Positions 20,801-50,133 of a stretch of 55,598 bases of DNA are shown piece by piece. Position 1 is the first letter of the stretch, and the number at the start of each line of letters is the position of its first letter. The notes under the pieces were generated by a model. That model worked only from the letters and a program-made list of their open reading frames with translations. It made no database searches and was not told the DNA's origin. A program made the position numbers and the translations under genes. This DNA comes from Craspedostauros australis. Lineage: Eukaryota. The stretch is taken from NCBI GenBank assembly GCA_030167865.1, contig JALAGF010006116.1, positions 1 through 55,598 on the forward strand. Reading direction: 5' to 3'.

Positions 20801-21607
20801 CGTGAGAACGGAATGGACAGCGCTGCCACGCTGACTGATGCTGCCGAGCGAAGAGCCGGTCGTGTGGCTGTACCCATCCGTGTCGTATTCGTGCGAGAAC
20901 TTGACTCCCACAGGATCCGCTCGGTCTGTGCTCATGGCCTTCATGATGTCCACCACCTTGTCGAGGAAGTAGGTTGCGGAGTCGACGGATTCCACTCCGG
21001 ATGAGTCGCGCGCCGTATCGTCGCCAGCCCTGCTGCTGCTGTTGCTGCTGTTCTCCTCGCCAGTGATGTTGATCTCATTGCCGTAGTTGTTGTCGTTGTC
21101 GTTGTCTTTGCCTTTGCCGTCGTCGTTGATCGCATAGCGATGAAACATGGCGTCCAAGCGCAGATCGTCATCGAAGGTGCCGCTCGATTGACGTTTGGAA
21201 GGGCTGCGCTTCTTCTGTCCTTTGTTTTCCGACATGAGCAGTCCTTGGCCCTTCTTGCTCCGGCGCTTGCGTTCCGCCTTGCCATGGCTCTTGGCCGGTG
21301 GCTTGTCGGATCCCGCCACATCCACTGCCGTCCTTTCCTTGATCATGTCGTCGGCATCGTTCTTTGTCATGATATCCGCGTCCGAGTCGCTGGGGCAGCA
21401 GCCGTCGTCGTTGGCACAACCACCGTTGCATCCGATATTCCTGCCACCACCAGTCTTGGTGGCCCCGTTCGCCACGACTTTGGTCCGCACGCTGTCATCG
21501 CCTCTGGGGCTGCCGTCCGCATTGCCCGCGCTCGCCTTGTTGCCTGCGTCCGCAGTCGATGTGCCCCAGAAGGCATCGAACGAGAAAGGATACGGCATGC
21601 TCGACAT
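14825..21607 (-). CDS. Ankyrin-repeat and coiled-coil protein (2260 aa)
   Basis: Single long ORF with ankyrin motifs LLLHEIC, YLPLHYAC, MPLHLACKWG and GKIPMDYA (about 18640-18985), followed by a long E/K/L/R heptad region; disordered termini. Confidence 0.85.
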   Translation of the reverse strand: MSSMPYPFSFDAFWGTSTADAGNKASAGNADGSPRGDDSVRTKVVANGATKTGGGRNIGCNGGCANDDGCCPSDSDADIMTKNDADDMIKERTAVDVAGSDKPPAKSHGKAERKRRSKKGQGLLMSENKGQKKRSPSKRQSSGTFDDDLRLDAMFHRYAINDDGKGKDNDNDNNYGNEINITGEENSSNSSSRAGDDTARDSSGVESVDSATYFLDKVVDIMKAMSTDRADPVGVKFSHEYDTDGYSHTTGSSLGSISQRGSAVHSVLTKNSSEEQTVHSAITAAKDEDDCDEAASDEDIMIGANSGRHDEPTLPMSNRDADWQERKQQDIMRKLRRASENTSKPKSKSKSKARSKQSSAPSASSNVKAQIDALLESQDEDLDNHVPQGFLRPTLEVNESDDDDDDDDSSDDEPTRQANIMMEPDAILESSSSTTALKVCVSTRADEVETTTMSTVTLPSRSHKMDAPEFKPAESMDRYEAIDRGASDTSSSSSSASQSRSDSEQSESDAAQQDLQLDASSSSSSSHSNPYTDADADHGGHDPPINSKHLDRDNTGTITARASHNDNNNGANQMIDNVPAPTARDYDSEDSIASSTTTAAVVIASSASAASAKPPTSTAEEEQSMSSHKAIADPDMMSLAKDRALTAPVDAQPQQTEAPTAEIQGATAKANDEPAQPTQQEPAIVAIPTQFAEHGIVMETSSNRKLDSKKTKRNNRPKKPSHDDSQLVQKSQQLQRHDVTNASHKRPNAADNTEQEEDIDIAQNHALTTSRQQLISGMPLPKKSSSGPCGNAPNSDYQKHLSSSSSTATTAMETLNSNEHGDDTDEKHSKELELSELVERHMWKALAIRIQRQPNSANQIMKGDASVHSMNGGGNLLLHEICKHEPTRDIVEAVLRTNRRAVAIKGERDYLPLHYACASAGSVEVVETLLQAHPEAVNSRDCDDLMMPLHLACKWGASKHVLALLLTSHPEATLARDIYGKIPMDYAMDIVSPDVKRETIDCLRWGLRLIEFPQKTPIAEPTHADMDAGAPHVDETDVGADGDADGDTNAGTVKTDDNSASATRRSQRSVRFAPSPTRPIREHRQEQTSAARPTISRDTRVYEEDDQVSSIDGCFNHRGQVFNGDANNDAGHDSLETYSDYSDDGDDNNTSNSNDEDTPCSGVQSHFRQELLDEMSSDLALDDYASASQDMAFGQRLQKLEQVDSEESDESDGFTGSRLMLEEQRRSILDLEHSMFKAMQQAQVDQHQAMEERIVALEENQEMQQDIIQSLEQDLEDAEKELADALMDQELHFTELLKNEETKADDMKIRLHETEEMHVMYTKALLETHEEETEKFRALAMRFRDLEAKLRGQVQEEVRRREDIEEQLRIREHEFLHLEMRLRHELWEEICKREQDASRTVDEERKVAALDEKSGNLEKLLVKERELVKKLQLTENEHRRQLDKQHATIETLEQSKVEMLSRLAKMENMIKVLEHARSHTMSLLETEKKRVEEIEVADQRKRSNLEFEKKKVKAVQKTQARRQAVLDSLQKKVNKLEMDQQITGSCIVELEHRLQLADDVRTQALRIIAHSYDESANSTNGGDAANTQNQERLRVMELLSESFQPEFDPEASGRLSRSAHGSASTRSGRSNATDMISEDMSVFSEAEMKRLASMERMVRENKWALEAEQSKVNDLDDERNRLMKLLAEKDEKLNDVAKKQNETSTRLEQQSAEIEKLMASMTRQEVARKEQAEAEARVLEELRMEKIENEQRLLEAQDRVVDLETTLHKQEQDMTTAANDDAADISNARLRESNSNTSKNVGFTPGRTQGSTINETNENHSGDVDDVEDNDDDVGDDQHLFEATSDMKFLEAELEKTRLELTKRIAFLGRTEGSQFDLQLEHTDDESEAGEDSAAVDIPETAAEPPANEDESEAAVQIGGDSGSQTEAQLETVIETETETEPQTTEVQHENIVPSMTPSELEEVKEEEDDHDYDDEQEAKDPEQLEVVDVTTKLDDENIDEEVMESAEPTQVEQVVERQLNTHRHNQNLSHHHHIVDADQEIASLHQDVQRLRTMQAMHLLQETNEVKLLRQQQQQQKQQQQRTERADRYSSMATIGAERAQQQQQQTREDVHATKLHSDVADERDDVIERTEERETMEPRPSTTEAGTTASNTIVVEDIEGDDDGDAPLMVVASKEPANAFASYSSIENQEDAEEDVHPQPHRQPKQQQYQQQRDANMDTSANVIAIRDDHLLPDDAQQRLLNETADWILGDRAPLNEE

Positions 21608-22696
21608 GTCGCGGTCGCCTCCCGTTTCGTCCTCTTCCGATAGCCTCCAGTCGCTTGCTTCTTCTGTTCCGGTTCAATAGCAACCGCTGCAGTCCTCAGA
21701 TCGTTTGTGTGAACTGCGTATAATCGCTTCGATTGCGCTCTGTGCTTGTTGCGTGACAATTGTGGTCTAGCTGCCGTTGTGAGGAAGTGTGGAGGCAGTG
21801 GCGATGGCGAAGTGTGGAGCGCGTTGCGCGCAGTGCAGAGGTGAACGTGACCGCGAATGTGAAGAGATTGGCGCCAAATGCGAATGCCGTTGACGATCCT
21901 GAGTTCTATCTAGCATGCACGTGTTGCTGATGTTACAGGTGCCACCGATGTCCGCGATGCAGAAGGTGCGCCTCGTTCATGTGTTGGTGTTGATTGTGTT
22001 GTGAAGTGAAGTGATGCTGATGTTGGTGGTGGGGCTCCGTGTGTGATGCCAGTTGTGCTGGGACGCTCCCTCCAACAACAAGGATTTGTTGACGGTGGAG
22101 GGAGCTTTTTGGGTTTTGGCGCGCTGGATGGAAGATTCGCCATCATCTCACAACGAAAGCGATGTTTGTTGGCGAATGAGCGTTAAGTTAACGTTACTTA
22201 CGTCTATATAGTATTCATGTCTTATTGATGTATAATTTCGCTGTCTTTGATTCAATCGACCAAAGTGCGAGAATTGCCTCGTATTCGTGACTAACACTTT
22301 CATTCGAGTCCGGACATACGTAGGATTGCCAAGTTCTTCTTCAACACATCAGCCTTCACGACCTCACCACCGTCATCCATCCGTCAACGCACACAAAGAT
22401 GTGATGACAAGACACAAGAGAGAGAGGAATGACCAAGAACACACCCATCACAACCACACCCACCACGTGCCCATCAACAGAATCATTCCACCGATCGCTA
22501 TTTCATCTCAGAAACATCAGCTCACATCGCATCGGGCTGCATGACATCACGTTGACCCATCACAACATTTGCTTCCACCACGCACACATAATCAATCGCA
22601 ACGTAACGCATCGACCCATCACCTCATCGAAGCCAGTCCACAGCTTCGTCCTTGATTTCGTCGTCCCTACGCGTACTCCAGAGAGAAGACACCACC

Positions 22697-24466
22697 ATGA
22701 TGTTCAAGGTCAATTCGATGGTCGTGCTGTCGCTGTTGGCGGGAGCGGCCACATCCCCTTGCGCAGCCTTTGCGCCCATCAGCTCGCAGAGCGCCCGCAG
22801 CGCTGGCACGCAAAAGCTCAGCAGCAGCACCGTCGCCGATCCCTCCTTCACATCGGAGGGTGCGCAGAAGCAGGTCGGCAACGACTCCTTCCTCAACCAG
22901 GACCTCATGGCGCGTGCGCAGAACGGACCTGGCAAGAAGAATGAGGAGTCGCTCAGCATCGGGATCGTCGGTGCTGGATTGGCGGGAATGGTCGCCGCCA
23001 TGGACCTGGCCGATGCCGGTCACAAGGTCGAGATGTTCGAGCTGCGGCCCTTCGTGGGTGGCAAGGTCAGCTCCTGGCTGGACAAGGAGGGCAACCACAT
23101 CGAGCAGGGCCTGCACGTCTTCTTCGGATGCTACTACAACCTCTTCGGCATCATGAAGCGCACGCAGGGCGACGAGCTCTTCAACCAGAACCTGCGCGTC
23201 AAGGAGCACATCCACACCTTCGTCAACGAGGGCGGCAAGCTGGGTGCCCTGGACTTTCAGTTCCCCATCGGCGCGCCCGTCAGCGGTTTGCAGGCATTCG
23301 CGCGCACGGAGCAGCTCGGCGTCGAAGACAAGTTCCACAACGCCGTGCGCCTGGGAACGTCCCCCATCGTGCGCGCCCTCGTCGACTTCGACGGCGGCAT
23401 GGACATGGTGCGCGACCTCGACGACATTACTTTCACGCAGTGGTTCACCCAGCTGGGCGGATCGCGCGGCAGCCTCGATCGCATGTGGGATGCCATCGCC
23501 TACGCCCTCGGCTTCCTCGACTGCGACACCATCAGCGCGCGTTGCATGCTCACCATCTTCATGCTCTTCGCCATCCGCACGGAGGCCAGCGTGCTGCGCA
23601 TGCTCGACGGATCGCCGCAGACCGGACTGCACGATCCCATCATCAGCTACCTCGAGGAGCGCAACGTCAAGATCAACCTCAGCACGGGCTGCCGTGACAT
23701 CGTGCACGAGGTCGATCCGGACACGGGCCTTCCAACCCGCGTCAAGGGTATCGAGGTCGGTCCCAAGAACGAATTCAAGGAGTACGACGTCGTCATCGCC
23801 GCCCTCGACGTGCCAGGAATCAAGAAGGTGCTGCCCGATAGCTTCCGCAAGTTCGACTTCTTCGACAAGATCTACAACCTCGACACCGTCCCCATCGCCA
23901 CGGTCCAGGTACGATTCGACGGATGGGTGACCGAGCTGAACGACGACGCCCGCATGATGGACATCTCCGGTGATCAGAGCGACGGCAAGGGCGCCGGCAT
24001 CGACAACCTCCTTTACAGCGTCGACACCGAATTCTCGTGCTTCGCCGACCTCGCCCTCACCAGCCCCGGCGACTACTACAAGGAGGGAGAGGGATCCCTC
24101 ATCCAGGCCGTCTTCGACGAGCGCGCCACGAGCCGGTCCAACGAGCAGCTCGTCGCGGACTGCATCGAGCAGCTCAACAAGGTCTTCCCCTCGTCGCGCA
24201 AATTGAACTGCACCTGGTCCTCCGTCGTCAAGCTCAACCAGAGCCTGTACCGCGAGAAGGTGGGACAGGACAAGTTCCGACCCAAGCAGGCCACCCCCAT
24301 CCCCAACTTCTTCCTCGCCGGCTCCTACACCTACCAGGACTACTTGGATTCCATGGAGGGCGCCACGCGATCCGGTCTCATGGTCGCCGATGAGGTCATC
24401 GCACGTGCCGATGGTCCAACGGGGTTGAAGAAGATGGCCGAACAGCAGCAGCCCGTCGTCGCATAG
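22697..24466 (+). CDS. ZDS: Zeta-carotene desaturase, plastid-targeted (589 aa)
   Basis: Signal peptide ending CAA|FAP (ASAFAP type), GAGLAGM dinucleotide-binding motif, GGKVSSW..GNHIEQGLHVFFGCYYNLF, CDTISARCMLTIF, YLDSMEGAT; strong GC3 bias. Confidence 0.93.
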   Translation: MMFKVNSMVVLSLLAGAATSPCAAFAPISSQSARSAGTQKLSSSTVADPSFTSEGAQKQVGNDSFLNQDLMARAQNGPGKKNEESLSIGIVGAGLAGMVAAMDLADAGHKVEMFELRPFVGGKVSSWLDKEGNHIEQGLHVFFGCYYNLFGIMKRTQGDELFNQNLRVKEHIHTFVNEGGKLGALDFQFPIGAPVSGLQAFARTEQLGVEDKFHNAVRLGTSPIVRALVDFDGGMDMVRDLDDITFTQWFTQLGGSRGSLDRMWDAIAYALGFLDCDTISARCMLTIFMLFAIRTEASVLRMLDGSPQTGLHDPIISYLEERNVKINLSTGCRDIVHEVDPDTGLPTRVKGIEVGPKNEFKEYDVVIAALDVPGIKKVLPDSFRKFDFFDKIYNLDTVPIATVQVRFDGWVTELNDDARMMDISGDQSDGKGAGIDNLLYSVDTEFSCFADLALTSPGDYYKEGEGSLIQAVFDERATSRSNEQLVADCIEQLNKVFPSSRKLNCTWSSVVKLNQSLYREKVGQDKFRPKQATPIPNFFLAGSYTYQDYLDSMEGATRSGLMVADEVIARADGPTGLKKMAEQQQPVVA

Positions 24467-31297: not shown

Positions 31298-32776
31298 CTA
31301 CAACGAGTTCTCATCCATCCCCAGCACTCGTGCAAAGCGTTTCAGCTCTTCGTCTGTCTCGAAGAACACGGCGCCATTCTGCATCCTCTCCATGACGGCA
31401 ACATCCTCCGCCATGTGACGCAACGAGGTGGTTCCAGACAACGGCGTGGCGTATCCCAAAGACATGAGGAAAGCATACATGTACGTCTGCGGCGTCAGGC
31501 CTTTGGCCTCGGCCCATTGTTTGACTTCGTTAGTCGCGAGGGCATCTTTGTTGATGGTGAGGGTCCAGAAGGTTTGGTACTTGATCCCATGCTCCTTGCA
31601 GAATGCGCGCAGCTCGGGGTCGAAGTTGGTTTGCGAGTAGAAGCGATTCTGCAGGACCTTTGGCTTGTGCTTCGCGACTTTGTACAGCCACTTGAAGTGC
31701 TCGGCATCGTAACAGTTGGAGATTCCGAGCTGCTTCACCATGCCATCGTCCACGGCCTCTTCCATCGCGCGCCAAGCCTTGAGGGTGTCATCGCCGTCTT
31801 CGTAGGGACTGTGCAGCACCCAGGAATCGAGATAGTCGGTGTGGAGGTTCTTCAACGACGTCTTCAATGAAATGGAGACTTGGGTCGGGATGGGATCATG
31901 GAGATCGTACGGCATGTTGTTGTGATCCTGACCGTTGGGAGGCGTGAACTTCGTCTGCAAGAAAAAGTCCTCTCGATTCAGTCCCAGGTCCTGCGCGGCC
32001 GAAGTCCAGCCGTCGCCCACCCCCGGCTCATTGTAATGCCTCGGCTGGCACGCTGTGTCAATGAAGCGGAAGCCCGAATGCACTGCCTGGCTAACAAATT
32101 TGGCAGTTTGCTCCTTCTTCCACGCCGTGCCGTACAGTAAATACGGTTTGTTGCTATGCGCCACCGAAAATGCTGATGTGGGAGATGCGGCGTCTACCAT
32201 GTGGATGGAAGCATATGCCTTTTCCTGGGAGAGTTGTTCGCATCCAACGAGTATCGGTTTGGTATGGTATTATATGTTATGGTATGATATGCATATTGAA
32301 CGCAGAGAGAGAAAGTGGAATGGAAAGACTAACGTGAGTGCTTGTGTTTTGATGAGTGCGGATCCATGTACCTTCGAGTACTTGCAATAGGACGTATGCG
32401 CGCTCCCCTTGTCACAAAAATGAACGCATACTCGAGCTTATGCTTGACCACATATAGTGCTTGAAGGCAGGCATGAACTTGAACCGATGCATCAACGCAG
32501 AGGCACGAATCATCGCATGGATCACCCCGCGAATCTTCGGCAAGCAACTCTGACACAGATATAATACCATCGAAAGGGCAACAATATCAAACCACGAAGC
32601 ATCTGTCGCAAACACACCTCCCAGGAACGGACCATGAGGTATAAGCCGAAGCAAAGGAAGATGAGCGTCACCTGCAGCACGACCAAATAGTGCCGGTTGA
32701 ACGTCATGTGACGAAGAAAGATCTTTGCTCCGCTGTCGGAGGGATGGGCCCGCGGTGCTCTCTTCACTCGAACCAT
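31298..32776 (-). CDS. Aldo-keto reductase family protein, probably with an N-terminal membrane-anchor exon (about 361 aa)
   Basis: Core LLYGTAWK, IDTACQPRHY, LQTKF, LDSWVLHSP, LGISN (32224-31298). Proposed exon 1 (32776-32618, hydrophobic LVVLQVTLIFLCFGLYLMV) joins in phase 0 via GT..CAG; exon 1 is less certain. Confidence 0.85.
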
Positions 32777-34341: not shown

Positions 34342-37300
34342 TTAGTCAATCACCGTAATCTCCGGCGGTTTGTCATCCTTCTTGACACGGGCCCCGCTGT
34401 TTGCGTTCGCGGCTCGAGCCTTGTACCGCAGTTTGTTGGGTGGCAACAGGACGTACGTTTTGTCGCCACGGAATTCCACGCGGTTGCGCGATGACGATGC
34501 GTCAGCCTTGAACTTCTCCACCGCGGATTTCGTTAGCGCACAGACTTCCAGGTCCTGGTAATTCAGAAATTCCTCGCACGAAGCGCATCTCCACCGTCCA
34601 CCGCAGACGATCGCATTGGACGACATGAAGTTGAACAGGTCAAAGCACTGCGGATTGTTGCGTTGCGGTCGAGAATGGAAACAAAGGATGTCAGATCAAC
34701 ATTCAAACATACTAGAGTAACGAGCACATCACATGGTGAGCCGCATTCACAGCCATAATCACAGGCACATTCACAACGGCATGACTATTCGGCGACAGGA
34801 AAATCAACGAAGCGTACCTGAAAGTGCTTGCATTGCCGTCCACGCACAGGAGTTTCCATGATGGTTTTGGAAATGGGACAGGTGAGCGTGAAGACAAATT
34901 TGCCACTGTCTTGCCCGGCGGAGTCACCTTCATCGTCGCTGTCCAAGATGCAGATGTTTTGCGTCTGAACCAGCTTCATCGCGACGGCCGTACTCTCTTC
35001 GAGCGTGCGTTGATGGATGGGCTGCATCTGGAACAGAGTCTTCGGGATGGTGGAACCTGGCAGGGCACCAAGATTCTGCATGGCACGGCTCACCGTCTGC
35101 GGTGAACGGTATTCACACAGAGAGATGCTGATGAGGAAGAGATTGGTATCGTAGCAGCACATCTTCATTGGAAGTTGGATCGACCCGTCGGTACCGACCT
35201 TGTCCTTCGAGGCATTGACGACGTAGCTAGTGATGTCGAGGGGCTTTGAAAGTAGCTTCCAAAGTCTTGGGTCGTGGGCCTGCTGCTTGCGCTGGGAGAG
35301 ATGCACAGGCGTATTGTCAATCGTGAGGAATGTACCGATCGGCCACAAGTGGCCGTCGCCCCGCTTCTTCTTTTTCAGTGCTTGCTCGGCGTCTTCCTGC
35401 AAGGGCAACATGCGAAGCAAGACACGCTTGTCCCCATCTCGCAATGTGCTACCGCTGGTGTCGTACGATACTTGCAGCACCTTCTGCACTTGTGAGTTAA
35501 ATTTCGCCACCACGAACGCTGCGGTTCGCGGCACATATGTCGCAATAGGTAGCATTTTGACTGTATAGAGCGATTGATTTGTCGAGAATCGGGGTGGATC
35601 AATTTGCTTCGTGAATGCTGCTTGGACTGGTGCAGTACATGCGATCACGTGAGGTTGCAAGACCATCCAGTTGGGGTCCCAAATGTGCAACCGTCTACCC
35701 AAGCTTCTCGAGAGGTCTGGGTTGAGAGAATGTCGTATGAATGTCAGCATGCATGGTAGGCGGCCTTCCAATGCACCGGAGTATATCTTGTTGTTGCTCT
35801 CCCCCGCCAGAACTATTGTCTTTACATCAGCCGTCCTTTGCGGTCTGGAAATGGGGACGTTCACCTTGGCCGGTTGCGGTTGATGTGTTTGCTTCTGCTG
35901 CTGATCTGGCTGCTCCTGCTGTGAGATGCGGGGGGTGCCATTGATTGATGCTGGGTTCTGTGCCAGCGGATGATCCCCAGCTCTTCGGCGTTTGTTGATG
36001 TCGATGTCGTTGTCGTTACCACTGCGTCCCACGCCACTGCGAACTTGGTGGTCACGCGTTGCGTTTGCATTGTTTGATTCGGCGGTGGCACGATTTCGTT
36101 TGGAACCAGCGCGCGGGCTTTCTGACAGGCGACTGCGCGCCTGAACCAGGAATCGGCGGAGCCAGGGGATGACTGTGGCATTAGAAGCAAATACTTTTCG
36201 TTTTGGGAGGAAGAACTGTCTGTTGTTGTCTTCATTGATCATCCAGTCTGCGATGTCGTTGGTGTTTCTGTTCGGAATCTTGCTACAATCATAGAGGAAA
36301 TTGCGGAATTCGATGGAACCCTGATTCATATCCTTGCGTTCGAGGAAGTCGTCATACATGATGATGACGTTTGGGCCAAGCGCAGGAACACCGGCCCTCT
36401 GCGGTTCTTGTATGCGAGGTGGCTGGAAGGCCTGCTGTGCCACAACTCCATTCGATTGGCGTGCCTGATGGTGTGCTTGTACTGGCAGCGGCTGTCGACC
36501 ACGAGGTTGCACGTTTGCGCTCATCGTCACCGGGCTTGGAGGAAAAGGTCGAGGTTGTAGCGACTGCTGCGCTTGTTGGCGCTGCTGAAATTGTTGTTGT
36601 TGTTGCTGCTGCTGAAATTGTTGCTGTTGCTGTTGAAATTGGTGTTGGTGTGGTTGTTGCTGGTGAAAATGTCGCACCTGGTCTTCGGGGTACTCCACCC
36701 GCTGCACCTCTTGTTGCTGTGCCTGTTGCTGTGCCTGTTGCTGTGCCTGTTGCTGTGCCTGTTGCTGCGCCTGTTGCTGTGCCTGCTGCTGTGCCTGTAC
36801 CTGTACCTGTTGCTGTGCATGTTGTCGAATGAGCTGTTGAAGTTGCAGATTTTTCTGATCGAGCGCCTGCTTGTACTTGTGCGCCTTGTCCACCAACTGA
36901 TTGTACCGTTGTTGTTCTGCTCGTCGTTGTGCATGATGGTGTTCCTTTTGCTGGGTTAGCTGCTGAAGATGTTGCTCTTTCTGCTGGATTGTTTGCTGGT
37001 GTTGCCGCAGCTGCTCTTCGAGTTGCTCCAGCCGTCGCTGCTGCTTTGCGCCAGCAGACTCCGGGTCAAGCACCCGGAGCGCTTGCTCGGAGCGTCCTGC
37101 CAGACCGTTGACCTGCTTCCGCTTTTCATTTTCGAGTCGCAAGATCCAATCGTAGATCTTCTTCTCTTTCTTGCGCTGGGTCTTGAGGAACCACTTGACT
37201 GTGATGCGGATGTCGTTCTTGATTCGGTTGAGGCTTTCTACCATCCCGCACGGCTTCCACTTGACAGAGTTGGGGTCGGTGGTGTGAGCATCGAATGGCT

Positions 37301-38225
37301 CGGTGGCAATGAGAGTGTGGATGCCACTCTGCATCATCTGATCCATGATCTGCTGGGCGCATGCTTCCGAGTCCGATTGCAGCGTTGGCTTGTCCATGGT
37401 GTCCACCAAAGCTTTGGCGTATGCGCGGTTGGAGATGGAGGTTCTGGTGTCGTCTGAGAAGTGTATGTGGCTTTGATCAGAGCGGAAGTTGAATGGGGCG
37501 CCGGCGGTTGCGCTTTGATCATCCTGCAGCAGCAGCGTGTCTGGTGTTAGCTGCAGCGAAGCATGTTGTTGGAGGTGGTACGACATGTACTCCTGCACCA
37601 GCGAATCCTCGTCCTGGGCATTCTCACCATCCGCAGGAGTTGCAACAGCCCGCGCTGGGGCATCATCCACCTTGTCGGTTTGGCACGCCGCATTGACCTT
37701 GTCAACAGCTGACGACGATGGTGACGACGACGATGTCGCAGCTGCAGCTGCAGGTGCAGTGGTCTTTGGACGCAACGTCATGACTGCCGAATTGGTGCGG
37801 TTGAGCAGTTGACGTACAAGATCCAAGGACGCACGACGGCTCGCCGCCGAAGCGGATGCATTCTGGGCGCGGTGCAGATGCGTGGCCAGGAGACACCGAA
37901 TGCGCGCTACCGGATCTTCGATGGTGTCCACATCTTGCGGCATCTGGTCATCCATGGCAGCGACGGCCAGGAAGGAATGCAGGATATCTTCCCGCGGCGA
38001 TGTGCCGTCCGTGTCGCGCTGCGCAATCTCAGACTTGATTTGTTGCTTCATGCCTTGCCACGAGTGCACGGTCATGAGGCGGATGAGCTGCGAGTCGAGC
38101 GAGGAGAACTGCTTGCATCTCTCATCCACTACCTTCCACAGTCTTTGGTTCTTCTGCGTGGCCTTCATCTTCTGGTCTCCATGATTGGCAGCAGTGGATG
38201 GGGTTCGAGTGTTGGAGGCAGCCAT
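34342..38225 (-). CDS. SP-RING (zf-MIZ) protein, Siz/PIAS-like SUMO E3 ligase (about 1237 aa, 2 exons)
   Basis: LTCPISKTIMETPVRGRQCKHFQ|CFDL...WRCASC assembled across intron 34817-34648. Q-rich middle; SIM-like ICILDSDDE and C-terminal ITVID. Start codon uncertain (38225, 38246 or 38339). Confidence 0.85.
36712..36795 (-). repeat. 12-bp coding tandem repeat encoding (AQQQ)x7
   Basis: TGTTGCTGTGCC-like unit repeated about 7 times inside the SP-RING gene. Confidence 0.9.
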
Positions 38226-38582
38226 CCCGTCTGCTGTCTGCTGCATGCACTCGTGCACTGTATTGTGCAGTGTGTTGTATTGTATTGTGTTGTATCGTAT
38301 TCGCGCAATGGTGATGTTATGTGCTTGTGCTTGTGCCAACTCCGGACTTCCGCACCTGCCCTGTGTGTGGCAAGCACGACCGTTGGCTGGTTCCTCTCCG
38401 CGGATACTCGTCTGTCCTCGTCTGTGCTTGTATCGAGTGATCGTATCTATTGTATTGTATTCTATGATCGTTCCGAATGGTTGGAAGATGACAGCACTCC
38501 AACTAACGATGCCGCCCTTCGCTTCTCTTCACTTTGGTCTTGCTTTGCTGTTGCACAATGGCTCTGCTGCGCTGCGCTGCGG

Positions 38583-38614: not shown

Positions 38615-40385
38615 TGCTCAGCTATCTCTCCCTCTGTACCCCGTCTTGCTTGTGGATGCGCGCCAAGAAGTCTTGATGGGCTGCTTGGCGTGAGTCTCGG
38701 CACAGGCAGGCCACTCGCGTAGGCATCAATCATGTGGCTCCTCCGACCGCGAGTCCTGTCTTCGGTGTTGCTTTCTTGGTGTGTGTGGGAGAATGATCAT
38801 TCTTGACTTATTTTTTTGGCGGTTGTGTGTTTGTTGCCTTCTTCAGACTTTGAATATGGGACTTGTCAAGTACATGAAAGGCGACTTGAGCGACCAGAAC
38901 TGTACTTCCGATTTCGTGATTGACTTGACGTGTCACGTTCCGATGGTGACGTGGGATGTGGATGACACGCTGTTGCTGGTTAGGGAGTCGTTGAGTCCCT
39001 AGTGAGATCGTTGCATCTGTGAACAAGATTCCCTGATAGTCTATTCCCATGTTGCACCGATTAGTTCCACGTGAGTCAAGGGAATCAGGGAATGGACGAT
39101 ACGTGATGATAACACTGGGTTCACAAATTGGCGTGCTGGTTGCAAAACAGGAGACCTGGCAGATGGCGATCTCATTGGCTTGTCATCATGTCGCGTTGGT
39201 CCTCGTCACACCACTGTTCGCGCTGACTGGTGAATCGATTGGGCGTGTTGTTGAACAGATGGCGATGCCGTGGTCGTCGTGTTTGTTGTGGCCGTTGTTG
39301 TTGGCGGGTGAGTTGTGCCGTGGTGGAGTGAACGGAGGATGAAAGGAACGAAAACGCATCGCGTCATGTTGTCGTCGTTCCATCTCTCTCTCTCTCTCTT
39401 GTGTGGCGTTGACCTCGGGAGCCGATCTGGTTTGATTTGATTTGATCTGATTCGGTGTTCCAGTTGAACCGAGCCGACCCTGACCCGACCTGAGTTGAGA
39501 GTTGGACAGTTTGTTGACCACGAAAAGCGCGGGACGCTTGGGCAAGAGCCGGAAGAAGAAGAAAGTCAGGAATAGACTAGACTATTGGCAACTCGTAGAC
39601 GAACCAGTCAGCCAGAGAGCGAGTCCTACGGGTTATCGGAACAGCCAACCACCAGATACAGAAACACAACAAAGTGGAAAACGCAAAATCGAAGCATCGG
39701 CACCCAAACAGAGTAGTTGAAGAGTACCATCGTTGGCACTATCGTTGGCACCGCCGATTGCATTCTCAGTGTTTGCAGCGTGCAGTAAAGTATCGTCTAC
39801 AGCACTCTCTCTGGAGCATACGAGTGCAATTACAACTAGCATACGTCCATCCTTGCAGAGCCAACGAAGGTTCAAGGACAGTCATCGCACGCATCGACGT
39901 TGCCGCGATCAGAGGAGACCAGCACAGAACACGCAACACAGAACGCACAACACGCAACACACAACCACTGAAGATTGCCTCATTTCTTTGTCGCACAGCA
40001 CTGTTCTTCGTCGCACCTTCGCAGTCAAGCACAGTCTGCACAACAACTACGATAGCACAGGAGGAGTGATTCGAGAGCGATCAACATCAGATCGCACAGA
40101 GCACCCAGCCTTTGCATCAGCGGCCTTTGGAATTGCTTCTATTTCGCCCCACGCACAAGCACATTTGGAACTGCGTGTAATTTCTTCGCGGCTAGGTCAT
40201 CCGACGCTCCATCCAAAAGACGTTTCCGACGTCATCCGACCTGAGCGCTTCGCCTCATAAAATCAAAAACCTCTCCGACGGTTGAGTTCACCATCAGAAC
40301 AGACACAGACAGACACAGATACAAACGCAGATACAAACACAAACCCAATCATAAACACAACCACAACCAGCAATCATAAAACAAC

Positions 40386-41834
40386 ATGAACACAAAAACG
40401 GCCACAAAGATGAACGGTGTTACCGTCGCCGCCAACGGCAAACCCAAGCACATGCCAAAGCCACCATCGCTATTGGCACGATACTCCTGCGCCACCGTCA
40501 TGGTCGGCGTCATGGGTCTCTGGACCAAATACGCCTTCCTCCCCGAAGACGAGACGCCATCGATAGCCATGCCGATGCATTCCTACAAAATCCCGCTGGC
40601 ATTCTCTCTCTCCTACTGCATCGCGTTGCCCGTCCTGCGATACCTCGCGCAGAACTACTTCCTCCATTGGACGGACATGAAACTGCTCCTGCGGGAGACC
40701 ATGATTCTCTACAATCTCGCCCAGGTCCTGCTCAACGCATACACCGTCTACCTCATCATCGTGGCCGTCACGCAGAACAACCATCCCTTCGTGGGAGAGA
40801 CGAACCTCGTCACGTCCGGCGCCACCTACGCCGTCTGGCTTCATTACGCCGACAAGTACCTCGAGTTCATGGACACGGCCTTCATGGAGCTCAAGGGAAG
40901 AGTCCAGCAGGTAAGAACCATCATTCCAACTGCAATTTGCGGCTGCAACCGCAAGAATTGTCATTCCATCGCATTTCACGGAACTCCGCATTGCATTGCG
41001 TGTTGCGCATTGTCGACATCTCTTGTTTCGCCTGTGTGCCCAATCACTCAGGATTTGGCGCCAAATTGCGCCTGGTCACGTTCCTCCCGGCAAAAGGATG
41101 GCGGCCTCATCAGAGAGAGGTACAGGAGCAATGCACGATGAGCACCGACGTGTGATGTGATGATGTATTTGCATGCGCTCTCTCAAGCAGTTTGGATGTT
41201 CCACTCACCTCCCTTCGCATAATCATTCATTCATTGTTTCATCCATCCATCTATCCAATGCTCCGCAATCCCGTTTTGTTATTTCGCAACGCACGCCGTC
41301 AATTTCATTCCATTCCATCGGAACACGTGCGCACAGGTCTCATTTCTGCACGTATACCATCACGTCTCCATACCGTGGGCCTGGTGGATCGCCCTCACCT
41401 TCTGGCCGGGTGGTGACTGCTACTTCGGAGCGCTGCTCAATTCCCTCATCCACGTCATCATGTACACGCATTACTTCGTCACCGCGGCGTTCCAGGTCGA
41501 TGCGCCATGGAAGTCATACATTACGAAAGCGCAGATGCTGCAGTTCGTTCTCGTCATCGCTTACTCCGTCCTCTCCCTGGGCACCCTGTATAGCCGCAAC
41601 GAGCTCGAATTCGTGCACGTGCAGTGCCTCTTCACGCAGGTCTTCGAGATGACATCCCTCCTCGGCCTCTTCTACGCCTTCCACCAAAAGTCCTACAAAA
41701 AGAAAAAGACGGTCAGAGCCAAAGCGGTCAGCGCGCCAAGGAAAGAGGCGGCCCTACGCAGCAACAGCCTGGAGACGGTCTCGGACGATTCCGACAGCAG
41801 CAGCGGCGGTGGCACGGACAAGAAGGATCAATAA
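40386..41834 (+). CDS. ELO/GNS1/SUR4 fatty acid elongase, resembling diatom delta-5 (C20) PUFA elongases (340 aa, 2 exons)
   Basis: Exons 40386-40910 and 41337-41834. Motifs KYLEFMDT, VSFLHVYHH, GALLNSLIHVIMYTHY, ITKAQMLQF; C-terminal di-lysine DKKDQ. Confidence 0.92.
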
Positions 41835-42802
41835 AGAATGGGATCGCCGGCATATCCGGATGCTTGCGGACGTACACATGTACGTACGTATGTGCATTCC
41901 TCAATGTATGATATTCCTGCACTCATCCTGGCTATTACTATTAAAAGATGAACAATGACAATGGAACAGAGGGGCGTGCATCTCATGCAATGCTGCTTCC
42001 AGCGAGGCGTGAGTATAGTATGGAGACGTATTCCAGTATTCTCCTGTGTGTTTCGGAAGAGAATGAATGCACACAAGCACCGATGAATCTACGCAGGACA
42101 TGGAAACAGTGTTGATGACATGCCAACATCTCCGTCGCAGAAACAATAGCAGCGTGCAAGTAAGAATGCATGCGTGCATCCCTGTGTGAACTTCAGCTTC
42201 GCTCCGACCCTGCACTTTCGAAAGGTAAACAAAACAAAGAATAGCACCGTACGAGTACATACTATTATATCATGCAAACGTTTTCGTCATGCGCGCGAAT
42301 GTGCGTCTGGTTGGTTCAAATTGGAATTGAATGGGACGGTGAGTGCTAGTCCTCCGGAGAGCGCTCCATCAACTTCCTCCCCAGCATCTATCACGATGGT
42401 TGCCAGCCTCATGGATGCGGAGGTATGACGGGTGGTTGCTCGTTGAAAAGTTACACTCGCACTTTGACATACACGTATGTACATAGGGACTCAATACTCG
42501 ATGCATATTTGTGAGATGGGTACCTCCTCCATGTGCTCATCAAGGGAGAGAGAGAGCAGTTATCGTCGTTTCCCACCGTTCTCCACATCCAGTCCAACTC
42601 TTTACGATTGGAGAGACTGCAATTCAATTGCTGTTTGTGATTTTGGGTTTAGAATCTATTATATGATGCTTACTTATCTATTATAGAGCGTCTTCCCCTC
42701 TCGTTCTTCATGCTTGTGCATCTACCACATACCATACACAGAGTATGTATATTTCCATAAAGTACCCTTCCAATTCAATGGACAGTCGTTCAACCATTCC
42801 CT

Positions 42803-45800
42803 CTATATCGCACCGAGGATTACCATCTCAGGATGGAAGCGCACGCTCTTCCCCGATGCATTCGATTGGCTGCGTTTGTCATGTTTCGCGAAAGAGCTCG
42901 CCTTTTTCAGTGTCTTGATTGGTGGCGGTCTGGGCCTTCCTTTCATCCGTGCCACCGGCTTGTCAGCACCATTGGCTTCGCCTTGCTCCTGCCCATCCTT
43001 CAGCACCGGTGGAGGCGCTGTTGGCTGCACCAGGAAGGAAAGCCATCCCGTGATCATGATCCAGTGGAACATGTTGAGGTTCATGGATGCATCGATGCCG
43101 GCATGCATGACAAACGCCAGCAGCAAGCCCATTGCTCTCGTGCGCTTCATCCACAGCATCGTGGGGACCACGAGTTGGATGGCGATGGTGAAGTAGGTCA
43201 GGAATGCGAGTGGCCGATGGTACTGATACAGCCAGTCGGGATTGAAGTACCCGCCGTACATATCATCCAGCTGGACCACGACTTGCATGGCGGTCCCGTT
43301 TCGCCAAGCTGGACCAGACAGCTTGCAGACAGTGGATGATATGAAGATGAGACACATCTCCAATTGAACTAGGCGGAATGGCCACTGTGATTGCGATGTT
43401 ACAAAAAAGAAGAGGTCAAGTTGTGGATTGGATTGGGTGGATGCAAGCGAAGCATCATGAAACAAAGCAGGTGCATGCGTATGCGTGTGGGTGTTAGCAA
43501 AGACCTCTCAGTTGCAAAAAATACATTTGAGTTGAATGGATGTCATGGACACCATGAGGAATCACAACAGAACAGGACTTACCATCGGCCATGTCTTGTC
43601 TTGCTCCTCCTCCAACTCTTCTTCCAGTCCCATGCTTCCGAAGCTACCGAGACTGCCCATGCTGATACTCTCCATGCTGCTCTTCTTCTTGTAGTTCATC
43701 TTTTTGCTGTGGCTGGTGTTAGTCTTTGGGCTCTTCGCGCCGTTGCGGATCTCGGCCTCCTTCTCTTCGAGCCAATCAAACACGCTCCCCGTGTTGTTTG
43801 GGAAGAAGATCATCAAGAAGGAAATGATACGGAAGACCGTATCTTCGCCATTCCACAGGATGTCGGTGTAGTTCTGCACGTTGATGTGCCAGAAGAAGAT
43901 GGAGATTGCCTGGAATCGCGGCGCGATGCCCATTGCCAGCAACACGGTCTGGAGCAGGAAGATGTTGATGCTGATGCCGAACAAGATCGCGGCAATGTCG
44001 TCGTTGGAGATGTAGGAGAAGATGGTGAACGCATGCAGTGGAGTGGTCTGCACTCCCTTCGATATCGGCATGGCCGCCAGGTAGAAATTGAGGCTCAGCG
44101 AAAGGATGAAGATGTTGATGAAGACCGTCACGGCGAAGCACGTGCGCACGATGACTGCCGAACGTAGATCATCCGTGCGGCTATGGAAGAAGTTGTTCCA
44201 CCGTTCTGCAACTTGATGGAACGGACCCTTAGCATCATTTCCGGCAGATTTGGACTGCACTGTCGATATCTCGGTGATTGGCATTGCCTCCCTTGCTTTG
44301 TTGTCGCCGGATGTCTCTGTCTGCGTGTTTGGTGCCGTGACTGCGTCGGCGTTCGCATCTGCGACTGCTGCTGTAGCCGATTCCTGCGCCGTGGGATCGG
44401 CCGCTGATGGCGCTGATCTGGGCTTGGTCTGCACCGCGTCGTCTTGCTTGACGGTAACTTTTGTCGTCTCCTTATCGTACAGCAGAGTAGCCTCGTCGTC
44501 TGGCTGGATCAAGAAGCTTGACCATGCCAGTAGCATCATGTAATGGAAGGCGTTGAGGTTCATGGAGGTGTCGATACCGAGATGAAACATCGCCAAGATC
44601 GCAAGCGTGGGCTTGCGCGTGGCCTTGAACCATACCGTGAACGGTGCGACCACTTCCAACACCAGCGTCATGTAGGTCAGCGCCGTCAATGATCGGTCGT
44701 ACCCGAACAGAAAGTCCGGGTTGAAGACCCCGCCGAACACATCGTCGAGCTGGACGATGAGGTGCATTGCAGAGCCGTCCACCCATCGCTGTCCTGCGAG
44801 CTTGTGGATGGCGGAGCACAGGAACATCAGCGAGACGTGCATCTGCATCAGGCGGAATGGCCACTGCGTTGTTGCGAGTGTGAGCAGTGCAGTCCAGTGC
44901 AGTTTGCAGATCATTGCATATGTGGCCGTTTTTATGAAGATATCAATACAGCGAGGATCGCAGCACCGGCGCGAAATGAGAGGTGGGAGGGTTCGTACAG
45001 ACGAGCAGAGGGATGTTGTGTGAGATGGAAATTCCAAGAACGAATGATGCACCCGACGAAGACGTGGAGACAACCAAATGCCCAATTGAAACCGCAAACA
45101 GGCCAAAGTCCCAAGACGCGCAGCCAACAAGGCATCAAGACACCCTGGCGTGGCCTCGCTGTACCTCACAGCAGCAGCAGCAGCAACAAACACAACGACA
45201 ACAAACAACATTTGCGGCACCGTGCAGTGACAGACTTACCATTGGCCAACTCCGCGAGACAGCTGACAACGATGACGATCGCGATGCATCCTTCGAACTG
45301 CGCTTTGAGCTGCGACTCTTGCGTCCTGGCCGTTGTGATTCCTGACTTTGATTCTTGCTGAACACGTCGAACATGTTGACGGTTGTGGGGAAGAAGATGA
45401 CGAAGAAGGAAATCATCCTCGACATCGTGTCTTCTCCAAACCAGATGACGTCGTTCCAACACGCCAGGCTGTACAGCCACGCGAAGGTGGAGACGGCGTT
45501 GAAGCGAGGGAAGACGCCCAAGCCCGACAGGGAGAGCTGCGACATCATGATCCAGAGCATGAACCTCCTGTATGGGATGACATTGTCGGACTCATCCGAA
45601 ATCATTGCAAACAGAGTCCATGTGTTGGGATAGCGCTCGCGACTCACGTGTGTCGGCAGAACCTTTGTGTAGAAGTCAAAGTCAAGAATCACCGTCAGTA
45701 GACCGGCCAAGGCCACGATGGAGTGCAGGAAGCGGAGAACCGCTGCACCCCGCAGGTTGGTGGTCCTGGCATGAAAGAATACCTCCCATTGCGACTTGTT

Positions 45801-46724
45801 CGCGTATGCCTTGTGTGCGATGATGGCGGCGTCCATACGCCCTGTCCGGCTGCGGCTCCTGTGCCGTCTGCTTCTGCTGCTGCTTCGCTTACCGTGGCGC
45901 CTCCCCTTCCTGCGGCTGCCCTTTGTCATGCTGTCGTCCTCGCTGCTGCTGATGCTTCCCGTCCCTCCGCTGCCTTCGCTGTCTGTCGTCTTGCCTGTGG
46001 AGGAATCTAATGGGACGACGTCTGAGCTGCTGGCGCTGTCCACGAGTAGAACTTTTCCGAGAATTCCCTGGAGAGAGTTGACTCGAGGCGCTTCCCGAGA
46101 AGCCAGTGATACTTTTCCTGGGGAGGAACGGGAGGAATCGTTTTGTCCTTGTGGCTTTCCTTCATCACCTCGTTTGGCGCGAAGATCTTTCGCCATCGTC
46201 GGTGGAGATGAACTGTATGTGGATACAGCGTCTTTCGAACCGAGCGTCGAGACTCTGTCTGAGTCGAGGGATCCGACGCTTCGGTGACCACCTCGACGTC
46301 GACGACCAGGGCTTCTGTGCTTGCCAAATACTCGGCGAAAGGCTGCCAGAGGACGCGATTTTTGTTTAGTCTCATTTGATCGAAGTAATCCATCATCCTT
46401 GCCAGCCTCTTCTTTTCCGTCCAGTGCATTTCGCTCCACCGAGGGCTCTCGTACTCCTTTTCGAACTCTTGACCTGTTTCGTCGTCTCTGTAGAGGAGCT
46501 GCCCTGTGACTCGAATCCGACGGCTTACCGGGTTCGGAGAGAATAGAGACCACTGACCCTGCCACAGACCCACCCGATCGAGGATTTCGTACACGTTTTG
46601 TTGGATGGGATCCAGCGCCTTCAGCGGTCCTACCATAGGACACGTGTCGATCAGAAACAATGCTATGATCGCCATCAGGAAGAGATCCGTTGCGAGACGC
46701 TGCATCTTTGCGGAGCTTGGCCAT
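42803..46724 (-). CDS. Tandem double-HTTM membrane protein (SdpB/LinG/vitamin-K-dependent carboxylase-like; 1115 aa, 3 exons)
   Basis: Exons 46724-45240, 44863-43583 and 43384-42803, all phase 0, GTAAGT..CAG. Two repeats of LR.A.(V/I).R...G..PRF...IW/LW.GEDT..R.ISF..IFFP...WPMWPFRL.Q...KL.G..W..G.AM...QLDD..GG.FNPD...H.GID.SMNLN.FH. Confidence 0.88.
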
Positions 46725-46732
46725 GATTTCAT
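46007..46732 (-). CDS. SdpA/DUF5819/LinL-like HTTM partner protein (241 aa), overlapping the HTTM gene in another frame
   Basis: First ATG after an AUG-free CA-rich leader. N-terminal hydrophobic anchor (LFLMAIIALFLID), GLWQGQWSLFSPNP motif, SPRWSEMHW..KKRLARMMDYFD...LWQPFAEYLA; globular amino-acid composition. Confidence 0.8.
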   Translation of the reverse strand: MKSWPSSAKMQRLATDLFLMAIIALFLIDTCPMVGPLKALDPIQQNVYEILDRVGLWQGQWSLFSPNPVSRRIRVTGQLLYRDDETGQEFEKEYESPRWSEMHWTEKKRLARMMDYFDQMRLNKNRVLWQPFAEYLASTEALVVDVEVVTEASDPSTQTESRRSVRKTLYPHTVHLHRRWRKIFAPNEVMKESHKDKTIPPVPPQEKYHWLLGKRLESTLSREFSEKFYSWTAPAAQTSSH

Positions 46733-46849
46733 TTTTTGTTCTCTGGTTGTGGCTGTGGTTGTGATTGCGGCTGTGGTTGCGGCTGTGTTCCTTTTCTTTT
46801 TATGACTGAGTTCTGTCTACCGTTTGAATTTGTTCGTTGTGTTGTGTGT

Positions 46850-46894
46850 GTTGTATGGTGTGCGTTGTATGGTGTGCGTTGTATGGTGTGCGTT
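46850..46894. repeat. 14-bp tandem repeat (GTTGTATGGTGTGC)x3 upstream of the dual-coding locus
   Basis: Three perfect copies plus GTT, read directly. Confidence 0.9.
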
Positions 46895-48110
46895 TGCGTG
46901 AAGTGTCAGCGACGCGAATGTTGAAATGCCCTGGATTCTCGCAGGAGAGACGGCGATGATTGTGTGCTATCCTTACCTGTCGTCGTTGCGGGTGTAGTAT
47001 GATTGGGAATTACCGTGGAGGCTGTTGCAGAAGTATGTACGACCACGAGTATTGGCGTTGTCGAGAGTGCCGCAATGGCTGAGCTGCTGCTGCGAGGTCA
47101 GATTTTGTGTTTCGAGAGAGTTCCCCAGCGATACTTTGGGTTGCGAAACAAGGTGTTCGGTTGTTGTGATGCTGCGTGATGTTCTGTTCGATGTTGCATG
47201 CAGTGTGCGCCTGTCTCGATCTCGTCTTCTTGGTCCCCCTTGATCGTTGTTCACTGATTTATGGCGTTGGACTGAATTCGTTGCTGCTCTTTGTACCCGT
47301 GTCGCTGTTTCCGTCGTCGCCAAAGAAGTTAACACGTTCCGGCTCTCCTCTTCCTTGCGCGTTCTTTCCCGAGTCGAGCGTCCGTTGCCAAAAATGAAGG
47401 CACGCGCTTCTTTCTTCTTCGCTCTGGTGCCACAACGACCTTTTGTACCGGACTATGTCATCTCCTCTGACTAAGTTATCGCTGACGTGAGCGCTATTAT
47501 GACATTTTCTATGTTTCCACCGACTTCTTCACGAGTACATAGTGCAGAAACGGTTCTCCTGTACACGGACTGCTATAAGTACTAACGACGAACCAGGTGG
47601 ATGAGAAGGCATAAACTTGCCAAAATGACAGCCAATCATATCCTTCGCGGATGACTCCTGCGTGGCATGATTTAATGAAAGCAGCTGGCTCACTCGCTTG
47701 TTGGCCATACATACAGCTCCGTTTGTCCGTCGAAGACATATTTTGGTCCGTGGATCACATTCCCACGAATCCGCCTGTCTGTTCGTCCATCCGTACAGAT
47801 GCATTCCCGGTCACCCATGAGAAAAACATGAAACGCCACGAACACGAGCCAACCGCTAACAAGTCACAAGGACGGTCGTATTCAATCTCGCTAATCCTGG
47901 TCAGGCGACTGGATCGCAACCCACCGAATTGTGTCACAACATCGCCCTTGCTGAGCAGCGCGCCACTCTCTCTCTGGACATCCATGGGATTTCACGCGAG
48001 CAGATGTTTCTCAACGTGGATGCTTTGGACCTGAGACTGCGAAACGATGAACACGGGGGCAGGCGTGCCAGTCGCCATCTCATGACCGAGAGCACAATGG
48101 ATCCAAGAAG

Positions 48111-50133
<2,023 letters not shown>

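What the first reader, a model, noticed from the sequence alone, without database searches (positions are those of the whole stretch)
42803..46732. Candidate eukaryotic SdpAB/linaridin-like peptide-modifying system with unknown substrate
Inference from the domain pair: a membrane-embedded two-component enzyme facing the secretory lumen, capable of carbanion-type chemistry (epimerisation, dehydration or carboxylation by analogy to CypH/CypL, SdpAB and GGCX). I see no precursor-peptide gene nearby, so substrates are probably unlinked secreted or cell-wall proteins. I know of no such system described in diatoms.
Basis: inference. Interest (0 to 1): 0.7.

Follow-up and report, generated by a model that had tools for sequence, protein, structure and literature searches.

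The report
Two enzyme subunits, one overlapping gene
A microbial eukaryote appears to have kept a two-gene bacterial enzyme module by writing one gene inside the other in a shifted reading frame, with the two start codons eight bases apart, so that one messenger RNA can probably make both parts of a membrane enzyme whose chemistry is not yet known.

Summary
The protein pair is real, but the gene structure is the surprise. ORF A (46732-46007, 241 aa, DUF5819-related, one N-terminal membrane helix) lies wholly inside the reading frame of gene B, shifted by one base. B starts at an AUG 8 nt after A's AUG (46724), has two introns (one seen spliced in RNA-type contigs) and encodes 1115 aa with two HTTM domains. 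A transcriptome orthologue (A 47% identical) has the same +8 AUG and the same nested overlap on one transcript. Both species avoid stops in B's frame (0/41 and 0/45 at-risk codons), although synonymous sites are saturated. Two further HTTM lineages overlap an A-like ORF in the same frame. In bacteria, A and HTTM are adjacent in 95 of 102 assessable loci, mostly in this frame, with no conserved precursor. Best reading: a bacterial operon kept as a dual-coding bicistronic mRNA, read by competing start codons, that makes a split GGCX-like ER enzyme. It keeps GGCX K218, W223 and F299 but not the glutamate pocket (N159/H160 to G/E). It is not an SdpAB or linaridin member. Translation, binding and chemistry are inferred.

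The parts
46007..46732 (-). ORF A, 241 aa, DUF5819-related subunit; first AUG of the locus; nested in the -1 frame of gene B
   Evidence: orthologues end at the same FYxW motif, so the stop is native; model pLDDT 91.6
46649..46705 (-). Predicted membrane helix of A (residues 10-28), signal-anchor type
   Evidence: hydropathy; helix 6-30 in the model
46535..46570 (-). Conserved GLWQGxWxLFxP motif of A (residues 55-66)
   Evidence: G55, W57, Q58, W61, F64, P66 conserved in at least 90% of 92 rows
46722..46724 (-). Proposed start AUG of gene B, 8 nt after A's AUG, out of frame; same offset in the orthologue
45789..46724 (-). B N-terminal extension (residues 1-312), hydrophilic, no membrane helix; residues 1-239 are the shadow frame of A
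45240..45788 (-). B exon 1, N-half of HTTM repeat 1 (WFGED motif at the GGCX W157-S161 position)
44864..45239 (-). Intron 1, 376 nt, GT-AG, predicted
   Evidence: the orthologue protein runs through this site unbroken; not covered by X1
43583..44863 (-). B exon 2: C-half of HTTM 1 (Lys equivalent to GGCX K218 at 44801-44803), linker, N-half of HTTM 2
43385..43582 (-). Intron 2, 198 nt, GT-AG, seen spliced
   Evidence: table 5: joint 43384-43583 in 1 contig, shorter side 29 nt
42803..43384 (-). B exon 3: C-half of HTTM 2 (Lys at 43322-43324), tail and stop; B is 1115 aa from 46724
42638..42802 (-). Probable 3' UTR, to the end of an X1 contig
   Evidence: table 8 (contig ends do not show true RNA ends)
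46733..47196 (-). AUG-free stretch upstream of A (next minus-strand ATG at 47199): leader/promoter

Best explanation
One spliced mRNA encodes both subunits of a membrane enzyme of bacterial origin. Scanning ribosomes choose between two AUGs 8 nt apart (competition or leaky scanning). The first gives A, a single-pass protein with a lumenal domain. The second, in the -1 frame, runs through A's sequence as a disordered cytosolic leader of about 310 aa and continues into two HTTM domains. A completes each HTTM core as the last helix and lumenal clamp of GGCX do, probably 2 A per B, in the ER membrane. The long overlap arose from the bacterial ATGA-type overlap, which is in the same frame, by moving the HTTM start to the 5' end where a eukaryotic ribosome can reach it. 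SHOWN: both ORFs, one splice, the nested overlap and +8 AUG in two species, stop avoidance, pairing in bacteria, conserved Lys/Trp/His/Phe. INFERRED: translation from both AUGs, binding, ER topology, stoichiometry. Chemistry, committed guess: base-catalysed C-H abstraction on a secretory protein or peptide that is not glutamate gamma-carboxylation. My split is epimerisation/dehydration about 40%, quinol-dependent carboxylation of another residue about 25%, redox or chaperone role like LMF1 about 20%, other 15%.
For: P0151 (A orthologue) and P0159 (B orthologue) carry the same transcript name with consecutive gene ids, and the cluster representatives both list a 3211-nt longest contig. They are mutually frame-consistent for 291 codons from A codon 3 to A's stop; the best run against any protein outside that cluster was 10. 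The orthologue has no Met between A's stop (B position 292) and the first HTTM motif (321), so an intact B must start inside A. Stop avoidance in the window: T at codon position 3 in 0/41 at-risk sites against 37/136 others (Fisher 1.8e-5); context-matched expectation 5.1 stops, P(0)=0.0037; A's other frame has 12 stops; B's own exon parts have 3, 8 and 4 stops in the same shifted frame. In the orthologue: 0/45 against 22/156 (p=0.004, 13 ambiguous sites left out). Third bases of four-fold codons match at 8/26, that is saturated. The 5' parts before any later B-frame Met also lack stops: P(0) 0.019 in the window, 0.13 before M96 and 0.0043 before M219 in the orthologue. N-extensions of P0157, P0158 and P0160 encode A's core motif in the same frame (36.0, 11.8, 16.5 bits; shuffle maxima 0.7, -3.2, 4.4 over 12 shuffles each). 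Bacterial pairs: 95 of 102 adjacent, 27 of 94 at -4, 64 of 95 in this frame, median open overlap 55 nt. Competition between AUGs under about 17 nt apart is shown in yeast (PMC9743702 abstract). K218, W223, H287 and F299 equivalents are invariant in 43 of 43 bacterial and 7 of 7 eukaryote-type repeats.
Against: No RNA of the window's own organism covers A or the A-B junction: X1 has depth in 10 of 30 bins, at the 3' end plus one short spurious piece. The orthologue's DNA was not seen; the single transcript is inferred from names, contig length and frame consistency, and an assembler can merge overlapping transcripts. An open shifted frame is uncommon but not impossible: 3 of 121 background tiles of 239 codons in this genome and 6 of 95 bacterial pairs with at least 450 nt open. 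In the window B could also start at 45929 or 45836, after A's stop. In P0157/P0158 the called start is about 90 codons inside A, not at +8. P0161 scored negative (it has a 16-aa deletion). A's stop lies about 770 nt upstream of an exon junction, which could invite nonsense-mediated decay (inference). The window's A lacks the KTEL end of its orthologue. Orthologue repeat 1 has G in place of the conserved E. Orthologue probabilities use this genome's codon rates as a proxy.
Confidence: 0.68

Rival explanations
1. Two tightly packed monocistronic genes: B has its own promoter inside A and starts at a later Met. The long open frame and the +8 AUG are inherited leftovers.
For: The window has in-frame Mets at B positions 177, 266 and 297, the orthologue at 96, 102, 219 and 242. 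Background tiles are open in 3 of 121 cases. There is no RNA across the junction in this organism. Called starts of P0157/P0158 lie inside A.
Against: Stops are also avoided 5' of those Mets in both species, synonymous sites are saturated (8/26), the +8 AUG is kept in a poorly conserved part of A, and both orthologue ORFs were called from one transcript. Even in this model B overlaps A in the orthologue.
Confidence: 0.2
2. Programmed -1 frameshift or a cryptic intron fuses A to B, giving an A-HTTM-HTTM protein besides free A.
For: B is in the -1 frame of A, and natural fusions of these domains exist (P0076, P0119, P0130, P0131).
Against: A shift needs the frame open only downstream of the shift site, yet it is open from a conserved AUG. 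The orthologue transcript is uninterrupted across A (291 codons). The natural fusions seen are mostly HTTM-then-A (4; one opposite-order record, P0033, looks frameshifted or partial). A lumenal A C-terminus would not fit a cytosolic HTTM N-terminus (inference from GGCX topology).
Confidence: 0.07
3. On function: a true RiPP-type (SdpAB/linaridin) system with a dedicated precursor elsewhere in the genome.
For: Linaridin clusters contain an HTTM protein (LinG/CrdG) and LinL. There is a weak SdpB match. An acidic E-D pair replaces the GGCX glutamate pocket.
Against: SdpB cut-off is missed by about 150 bits and there is no SdpA hit. No hydrolase, transporter or precursor family recurs beside the bacterial pairs: the largest neighbour cluster is in 10 of 117 loci at varying positions, and 72 short co-oriented ORFs from 59 loci form no cluster above 2.
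Confidence: 0.15
4. On function: a split vitamin-K-dependent carboxylase acting on glutamate as GGCX does.
For: A bacterial relative aligns to GGCX at E 8.6e-8. The quinone-side residues K218, W223 and F299 are kept. The preprint's AF3 model of another DUF5819/HTTM pair resembles GGCX and MloH.
Against: N159 is G (35 of 43 bacterial rows) and H160 is E (39 of 43); both bind the Glu carboxylate in GGCX. The preprint itself found half the clamp missing and the substrate channel blocked. A's model gave no match to GGCX in two fold searches, which is weak evidence.
Confidence: 0.12

Closest known systems
Bacterial DUF5819 + HTTM pair (bioRxiv 10.64898/2026.08.19.745780; passages and part 2 of Results read)
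   Same: Adjacent single-pass DUF5819-type gene and HTTM gene; proposed split GGCX/MloH-like complex.
   Different: Here eukaryotic, intron-containing, tandem HTTM, no DCC1-like domain, only a distant DUF5819 relative, and A is nested inside B's frame.
GGCX (bioRxiv 10.1101/2025.02.09.637231; passages and section 8 read)
   Same: HTTM core, catalytic Lys218, W223, F299; ER membrane, lumen-facing site (location inferred here).
   Different: Two chains; N159/H160 replaced by G/E; K217 not kept; no propeptide-binding domain detected.
Linaridin LinG/LinL(/LinE) and SdpAB (passages of PMC9927463 and 10.1101/2020.07.09.196543 read; epimerase/dehydratase activity of CypH/CypL and the role of SdpAB recalled, not seen)
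   Same: HTTM protein plus a small membrane partner.
   Different: No alpha/beta-hydrolase, precursor or transporter; family cut-offs not met.
Green-algal bicistronic genes read by leaky scanning (PMC11291117; passages read)
   Same: Two ORFs on one nuclear mRNA of an alga, cap-dependent choice of start codon.
   Different: There ORF2 follows ORF1 after a spacer (medians 40 and 183 nt) or a stop-start overlap; here ORF1 is wholly nested and ORF2's AUG is moved to +8.
Dual-coding mammalian loci: GNAS XLalphas/ALEX (start of abstract in a listing; PMC1868773 abstract); MOCS2A/B bicistron (recalled)
   Same: Overlapping frames of one transcript that give interacting proteins; MOCS2 gives two subunits of one enzyme with bacterial counterparts.
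   Different: ALEX is a lineage-specific alternative-frame protein, and the MOCS2 overlap is short (recalled). Here the nested ORF is the old folded domain and the host frame over it is an unconserved spacer (26% identity).
Viral dicistronic mRNAs with closely spaced AUGs (PEMV2 sgRNA; start of abstract in a listing)
   Same: Two out-of-frame AUGs a few bases apart that drive long overlapping ORFs.
   Different: Here a spliced nuclear gene.

Membership tests
HTTM domain (PF05090) | Profile score above 27.7 bits | tested here: met
   exon 2 32.2 bits; exon 3 25.0 bits (half domain); bacterial relatives 67-69 bits
DUF5819 (PF19136) | Profile score above 27.1 bits | tested here: inconclusive
   A 15.7 bits; 27 of 92 relatives at E<=0.01, best 3.7e-7: a distant relative
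SdpAB | SdpB subfamily score (TIGR04033, cut-off 178.4) | tested here: not met
   28.9 and 23.6 bits, scored exon by exon
SdpAB | SdpA-family partner | tested here: not met
   no SdpA model among Pfam or NCBIfam hits for 92 A-family rows at E<=0.01
Linaridin cluster | LinE alpha/beta-hydrolase (separate or fused as LinH) | tested here: not met
   none in B, none among 22 long window ORFs scanned, no recurring one beside bacterial pairs
Linaridin cluster | Linked precursor peptide | tested here: not met
   no conserved short ORF family in 59 bacterial loci; only unremarkable short ORFs flank the window locus; spliced or unlinked precursors cannot be excluded
Linaridin cluster | LinL homologue by the custom linaridin profile | not testable with these tools
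   the custom pHMMs of 10.1101/2020.07.09.196543 are not in the libraries held
GGCX | Catalytic Lys218 and quinone-pocket W223/F299 | tested here: met
   invariant in 50 of 50 rows, mapped through the alignment
GGCX | Glu-pocket N159/H160 | tested here: not met
   G/E in both window repeats; G 35 of 43 and E 39 of 43 bacterial rows
GGCX | A has the fold of the lumenal clamp/propeptide-binding part | tested here: inconclusive
   no Foldseek match at E<=0.001; VIA-align best Z 5.1 over 49 residues, rmsd 3.6, helix pair only
Dual-coding bicistronic gene | Both ORFs on one transcript | tested here: met
   met for the orthologue, by transcript name and 291-codon frame consistency; not covered for the window's own organism
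Dual-coding bicistronic gene | Selection keeps both frames open | tested here: met
Dual-coding bicistronic gene | Both frames translated from the same mRNA | not testable with these tools
   needs ribosome profiling, proteomics or reporters

The most novel reading that the evidence does not exclude
A horizontally acquired two-gene bacterial operon survives in a eukaryotic nucleus as a single spliced, dual-coding mRNA. The downstream gene's start has moved to 8 nt behind the upstream gene's start, so the whole 240-290-codon upstream ORF is read a second time as a spacer. The AUG pair sets the subunit ratio of an ER protein-modifying enzyme with non-GGCX chemistry, while sister lineages solved the same problem by gene fusion.
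Probability: 0.45. Interest if true: 0.88.

Novelty: new variant of a known kind. Interest (0 to 1): 0.78.

Why it matters
Long conserved dual-coding regions are rare in eukaryotic nuclear genes. This one has a visible origin, the ATGA-type overlap of a bacterial operon, and shows a route other than fusion or separate promoters by which an operon stays functional after transfer to a eukaryote. Annotation pipelines would keep only one of the two proteins or truncate B (one source calls it 646 aa, another 989 aa), so similar cases may be hidden in protist genomes. It gives a natural compact two-protein expression cassette. It also gives a precursor-free, probably ER-resident member of the HTTM enzyme group, in which GGCX-type against linaridin-type chemistry can be tested directly.

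Tried and rejected
Word-index homologue searches found nothing for A at near lengths or for B exon 2 among 759-2165-aa proteins; both proved insensitive, since searches found relatives. No run on record as RNA holds the stretch; the one holder laid covers only the 3' part, and its pieces at 43675-43710 and 46744-46787 are short foreign matches. Premature stop or assembly frameshift in A was rejected: orthologues end at the same motif and the orthologue has the same two-frame layout. No A partner for P0157/P0158/P0160-63 was among the stored proteins (best consistent run 10). Fold searches of A gave no informative match. Sequence searches of solved structures with the A profile and with a fusion protein gave nothing useful. 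No model of the A-HTTM complex was obtained, so binding rests on gene pairing, natural fusions and the cited preprint. ESM Atlas gave only unnamed bacterial clusters. Donor lineage: a quick tree of 72 rows (65 bacterial from genome contigs with HTTM ORFs of at least 280 aa; metagenome loci left out; no outgroup; careful search unfinished) puts the 7 eukaryote-type repeats on one side of a branch (SH-aLRT 99) with no resolved sister. No second copy was found in the own genome (exon-wise, best candidates only). Earlier scan notes held nothing. PMC10676384 (abstract) and PMC12749797 (passages) were irrelevant. Ten literature searches listed no title or abstract on an algal HTTM/DUF5819 locus or this overlap; the library lacks most subscription papers. 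No supplements were read.
Full report
Anatomy. On the minus strand, ORF A runs from 46732 to 46007 (241 aa). It has one hydrophobic helix at residues 10-28 and folds with mean pLDDT 91.6 from a 92-row alignment. A second frame is open from 46799 to 45135, across the whole of A, and its first ATG is at 46724, 8 nt after A's. Two GT-AG introns (376 and 198 nt) join this frame to two more exons. The spliced frame is open and has two HTTM repeats, 37% identical, each interrupted at the same point, so the duplication carried the intron with it. Intron 2 is skipped exactly in one contig of run X1; that run covers only the 3' 1.4 kb and its RNA status is a guess. B is 1115 aa from 46724. The genome search found no other copy. 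Recognised neighbours are ordinary eukaryotic genes. The taxon was not tested.

What A is. A full-library phmmer search gave 182 relatives at E<=0.001, 150 listed. The best are stand-alone proteins that end near the same FYxW motif, so A's stop is native. A is a distant DUF5819 relative with no SdpA hit. Four hits are HTTM-then-A fusions; two carry a ShK domain and three end in xDEL. The closest orthologue ends in KTEL. That ShK domains and xDEL ends mark ER-lumen proteins is recalled knowledge.

Bacterial context. Of 117 loci fetched, 15 end too close to the match to judge, 7 have no HTTM gene, and 95 have one directly downstream on the same strand; 27 of 94 spacings are -4. In 64 of 95 pairs the HTTM gene is in the same relative frame as B is to A. 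The median open overlap is 55 nt, and 6 of 95 reach 450 nt. No neighbour family or short ORF recurs beyond local synteny, so lack of a precursor is the ancestral state of this branch. A quick tree puts the 7 eukaryote-type repeats together (SH-aLRT 99), dates the tandem duplication before the split of the two species, and does not resolve a donor. The 'eukaryote' label of P0157, P0160 and P0076 is my inference from likeness.

The overlap is conserved. A targeted search found a tandem-HTTM orthologue (58% over the searched 126 aa). Its MMETSP cluster member P0159 (989 aa) bears the same transcript name as the A orthologue P0151, with the adjacent gene id. P0159 begins at P0151 codon 3 and the two are frame-consistent for 291 codons through A's stop; proteins outside that cluster reach at most 10. 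This is the same +8 offset as in the window. The orthologue has no Met between A's stop and the first conserved HTTM motif. In the window, 0 of 41 codons where a third-position T would put a stop in B's frame carry T, against 37 of 136 elsewhere. With context-matched rates from 59 long ORFs of this genome (252 kb), 5.1 stops are expected, P(0)=0.0037. Against that, 3 of 121 background tiles were also open. In the orthologue the count is 0 of 45 against 22 of 156, P(0)=0.00085 with borrowed rates. Four-fold sites match at 8 of 26, so the two species keep the frame open largely independently. The B-frame sequence over A is only 63 of 239 identical and has no membrane helix, as expected of a spacer. 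The N-extensions of three of five further single-HTTM proteins tested encode A's core in the same frame (P0157; P0158 and P0160, which are one cluster). P0161 has a deletion there and P0163 lacks the region. In these proteins the called start lies inside A.

How it probably works. No ATG lies within 466 nt upstream of A's start. Both AUGs have A at -3; the first has A at +4, the second G. In yeast an out-of-frame AUG within about 17 nt competes with the first (PMC9743702, abstract and outline), and leaky scanning drives algal bicistrons (PMC11291117, passages). I infer that ribosomes split between A and B. Moving B's start to the 5' end spares a scanning ribosome the many AUGs inside A, at the price of keeping the frame open, which is the selection seen. 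Two HTTM cores per B would suit a surplus of A from the first AUG (speculation). Translation itself is not shown, and an internal promoter remains the main rival (0.2).

Chemistry. Through a bacterial relative's alignment to GGCX (E 8.6e-8), the equivalents of K218, W223, H287 and F299 are invariant in 50 of 50 rows, while N159 and H160 become G and E and are followed by an invariant D. In GGCX, K218 is the base for the quinol, W223 and F299 line the quinone pocket, and N159/H160 hold the glutamate (bioRxiv 10.1101/2025.02.09.637231, section 8). A 2026 preprint models another DUF5819/HTTM pair as a split GGCX with half the clamp, and with Leu59/Phe60 at the quinone pocket. A's conserved L-F in its GLWQGxWxLFxP motif may be the equivalent (inference). 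So the pair probably works like GGCX/MloH or LinG/LinL in architecture but is not a member of GGCX, SdpAB or linaridin systems by the features tested. I favour C-H abstraction on a secretory protein with an outcome other than Gla. The reaction and substrate are guesses, and no complex model was obtained.

Verdict. The RiPP label is not supported, and the bacterial pair has a recent precedent. The notable finding is the conserved nested dual-coding arrangement, which none of ten searches of the held library listed. Novelty: a new variant of known kinds (dual-coding or bicistronic eukaryotic genes; HTTM two-component enzymes). Interest 0.78.

Noticed in passing
P0076/P0164, P0119, P0130, P0131: A second, probably eukaryotic architecture: HTTM fused to the A domain, in two cases followed by a ShK domain, in three ending in xDEL. 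Not found in this genome.
   Followed up: partly
window 43356-43526: Run X1 also has a contig reading unspliced into intron 2 with a 3-nt deletion at 43494: intron retention, an allele or DNA.
   Followed up: no
P0161/P0162 against P0160: A 16-aa in-frame deletion in the N-extension removes the overlapped core motif of A: possible small intron, allele or broken A.
   Followed up: no
   Followed up: no
L023, L038, L047, L081, L084, L085, L096: Seven loci with an A-like gene and no HTTM gene detected in the stretch fetched, also with a second-round profile.
   Followed up: partly
L100:3082-4839, L102:3707-6007: Myxococcota A-like domains at the C-end of 585- and 766-aa ORFs with no other Pfam hit; may be long ORFs or mis-called starts.
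   Followed up: partly
window 2298-6326 (+): Ty1/copia-type retrotransposon pol ORF (RVT_2, GAG-pre-integrase, SH3), preceded by an unassigned ORF at 538-2361.
   Followed up: no
window 40380-41834 (+): Spliced fatty-acid elongase (ELO family) converging on gene B, stops about 1 kb apart.
   Followed up: no
window 14825-21673 (-), 22607-24466 (+), 31298-32269 (-), 34785-38528 (-), 48051-48941 (+): Large ankyrin protein, flavin amine oxidase (with a 649-codon open antisense frame), aldo-keto reductase, MIZ zinc-finger protein and RETICULATA-like gene.
   Followed up: no
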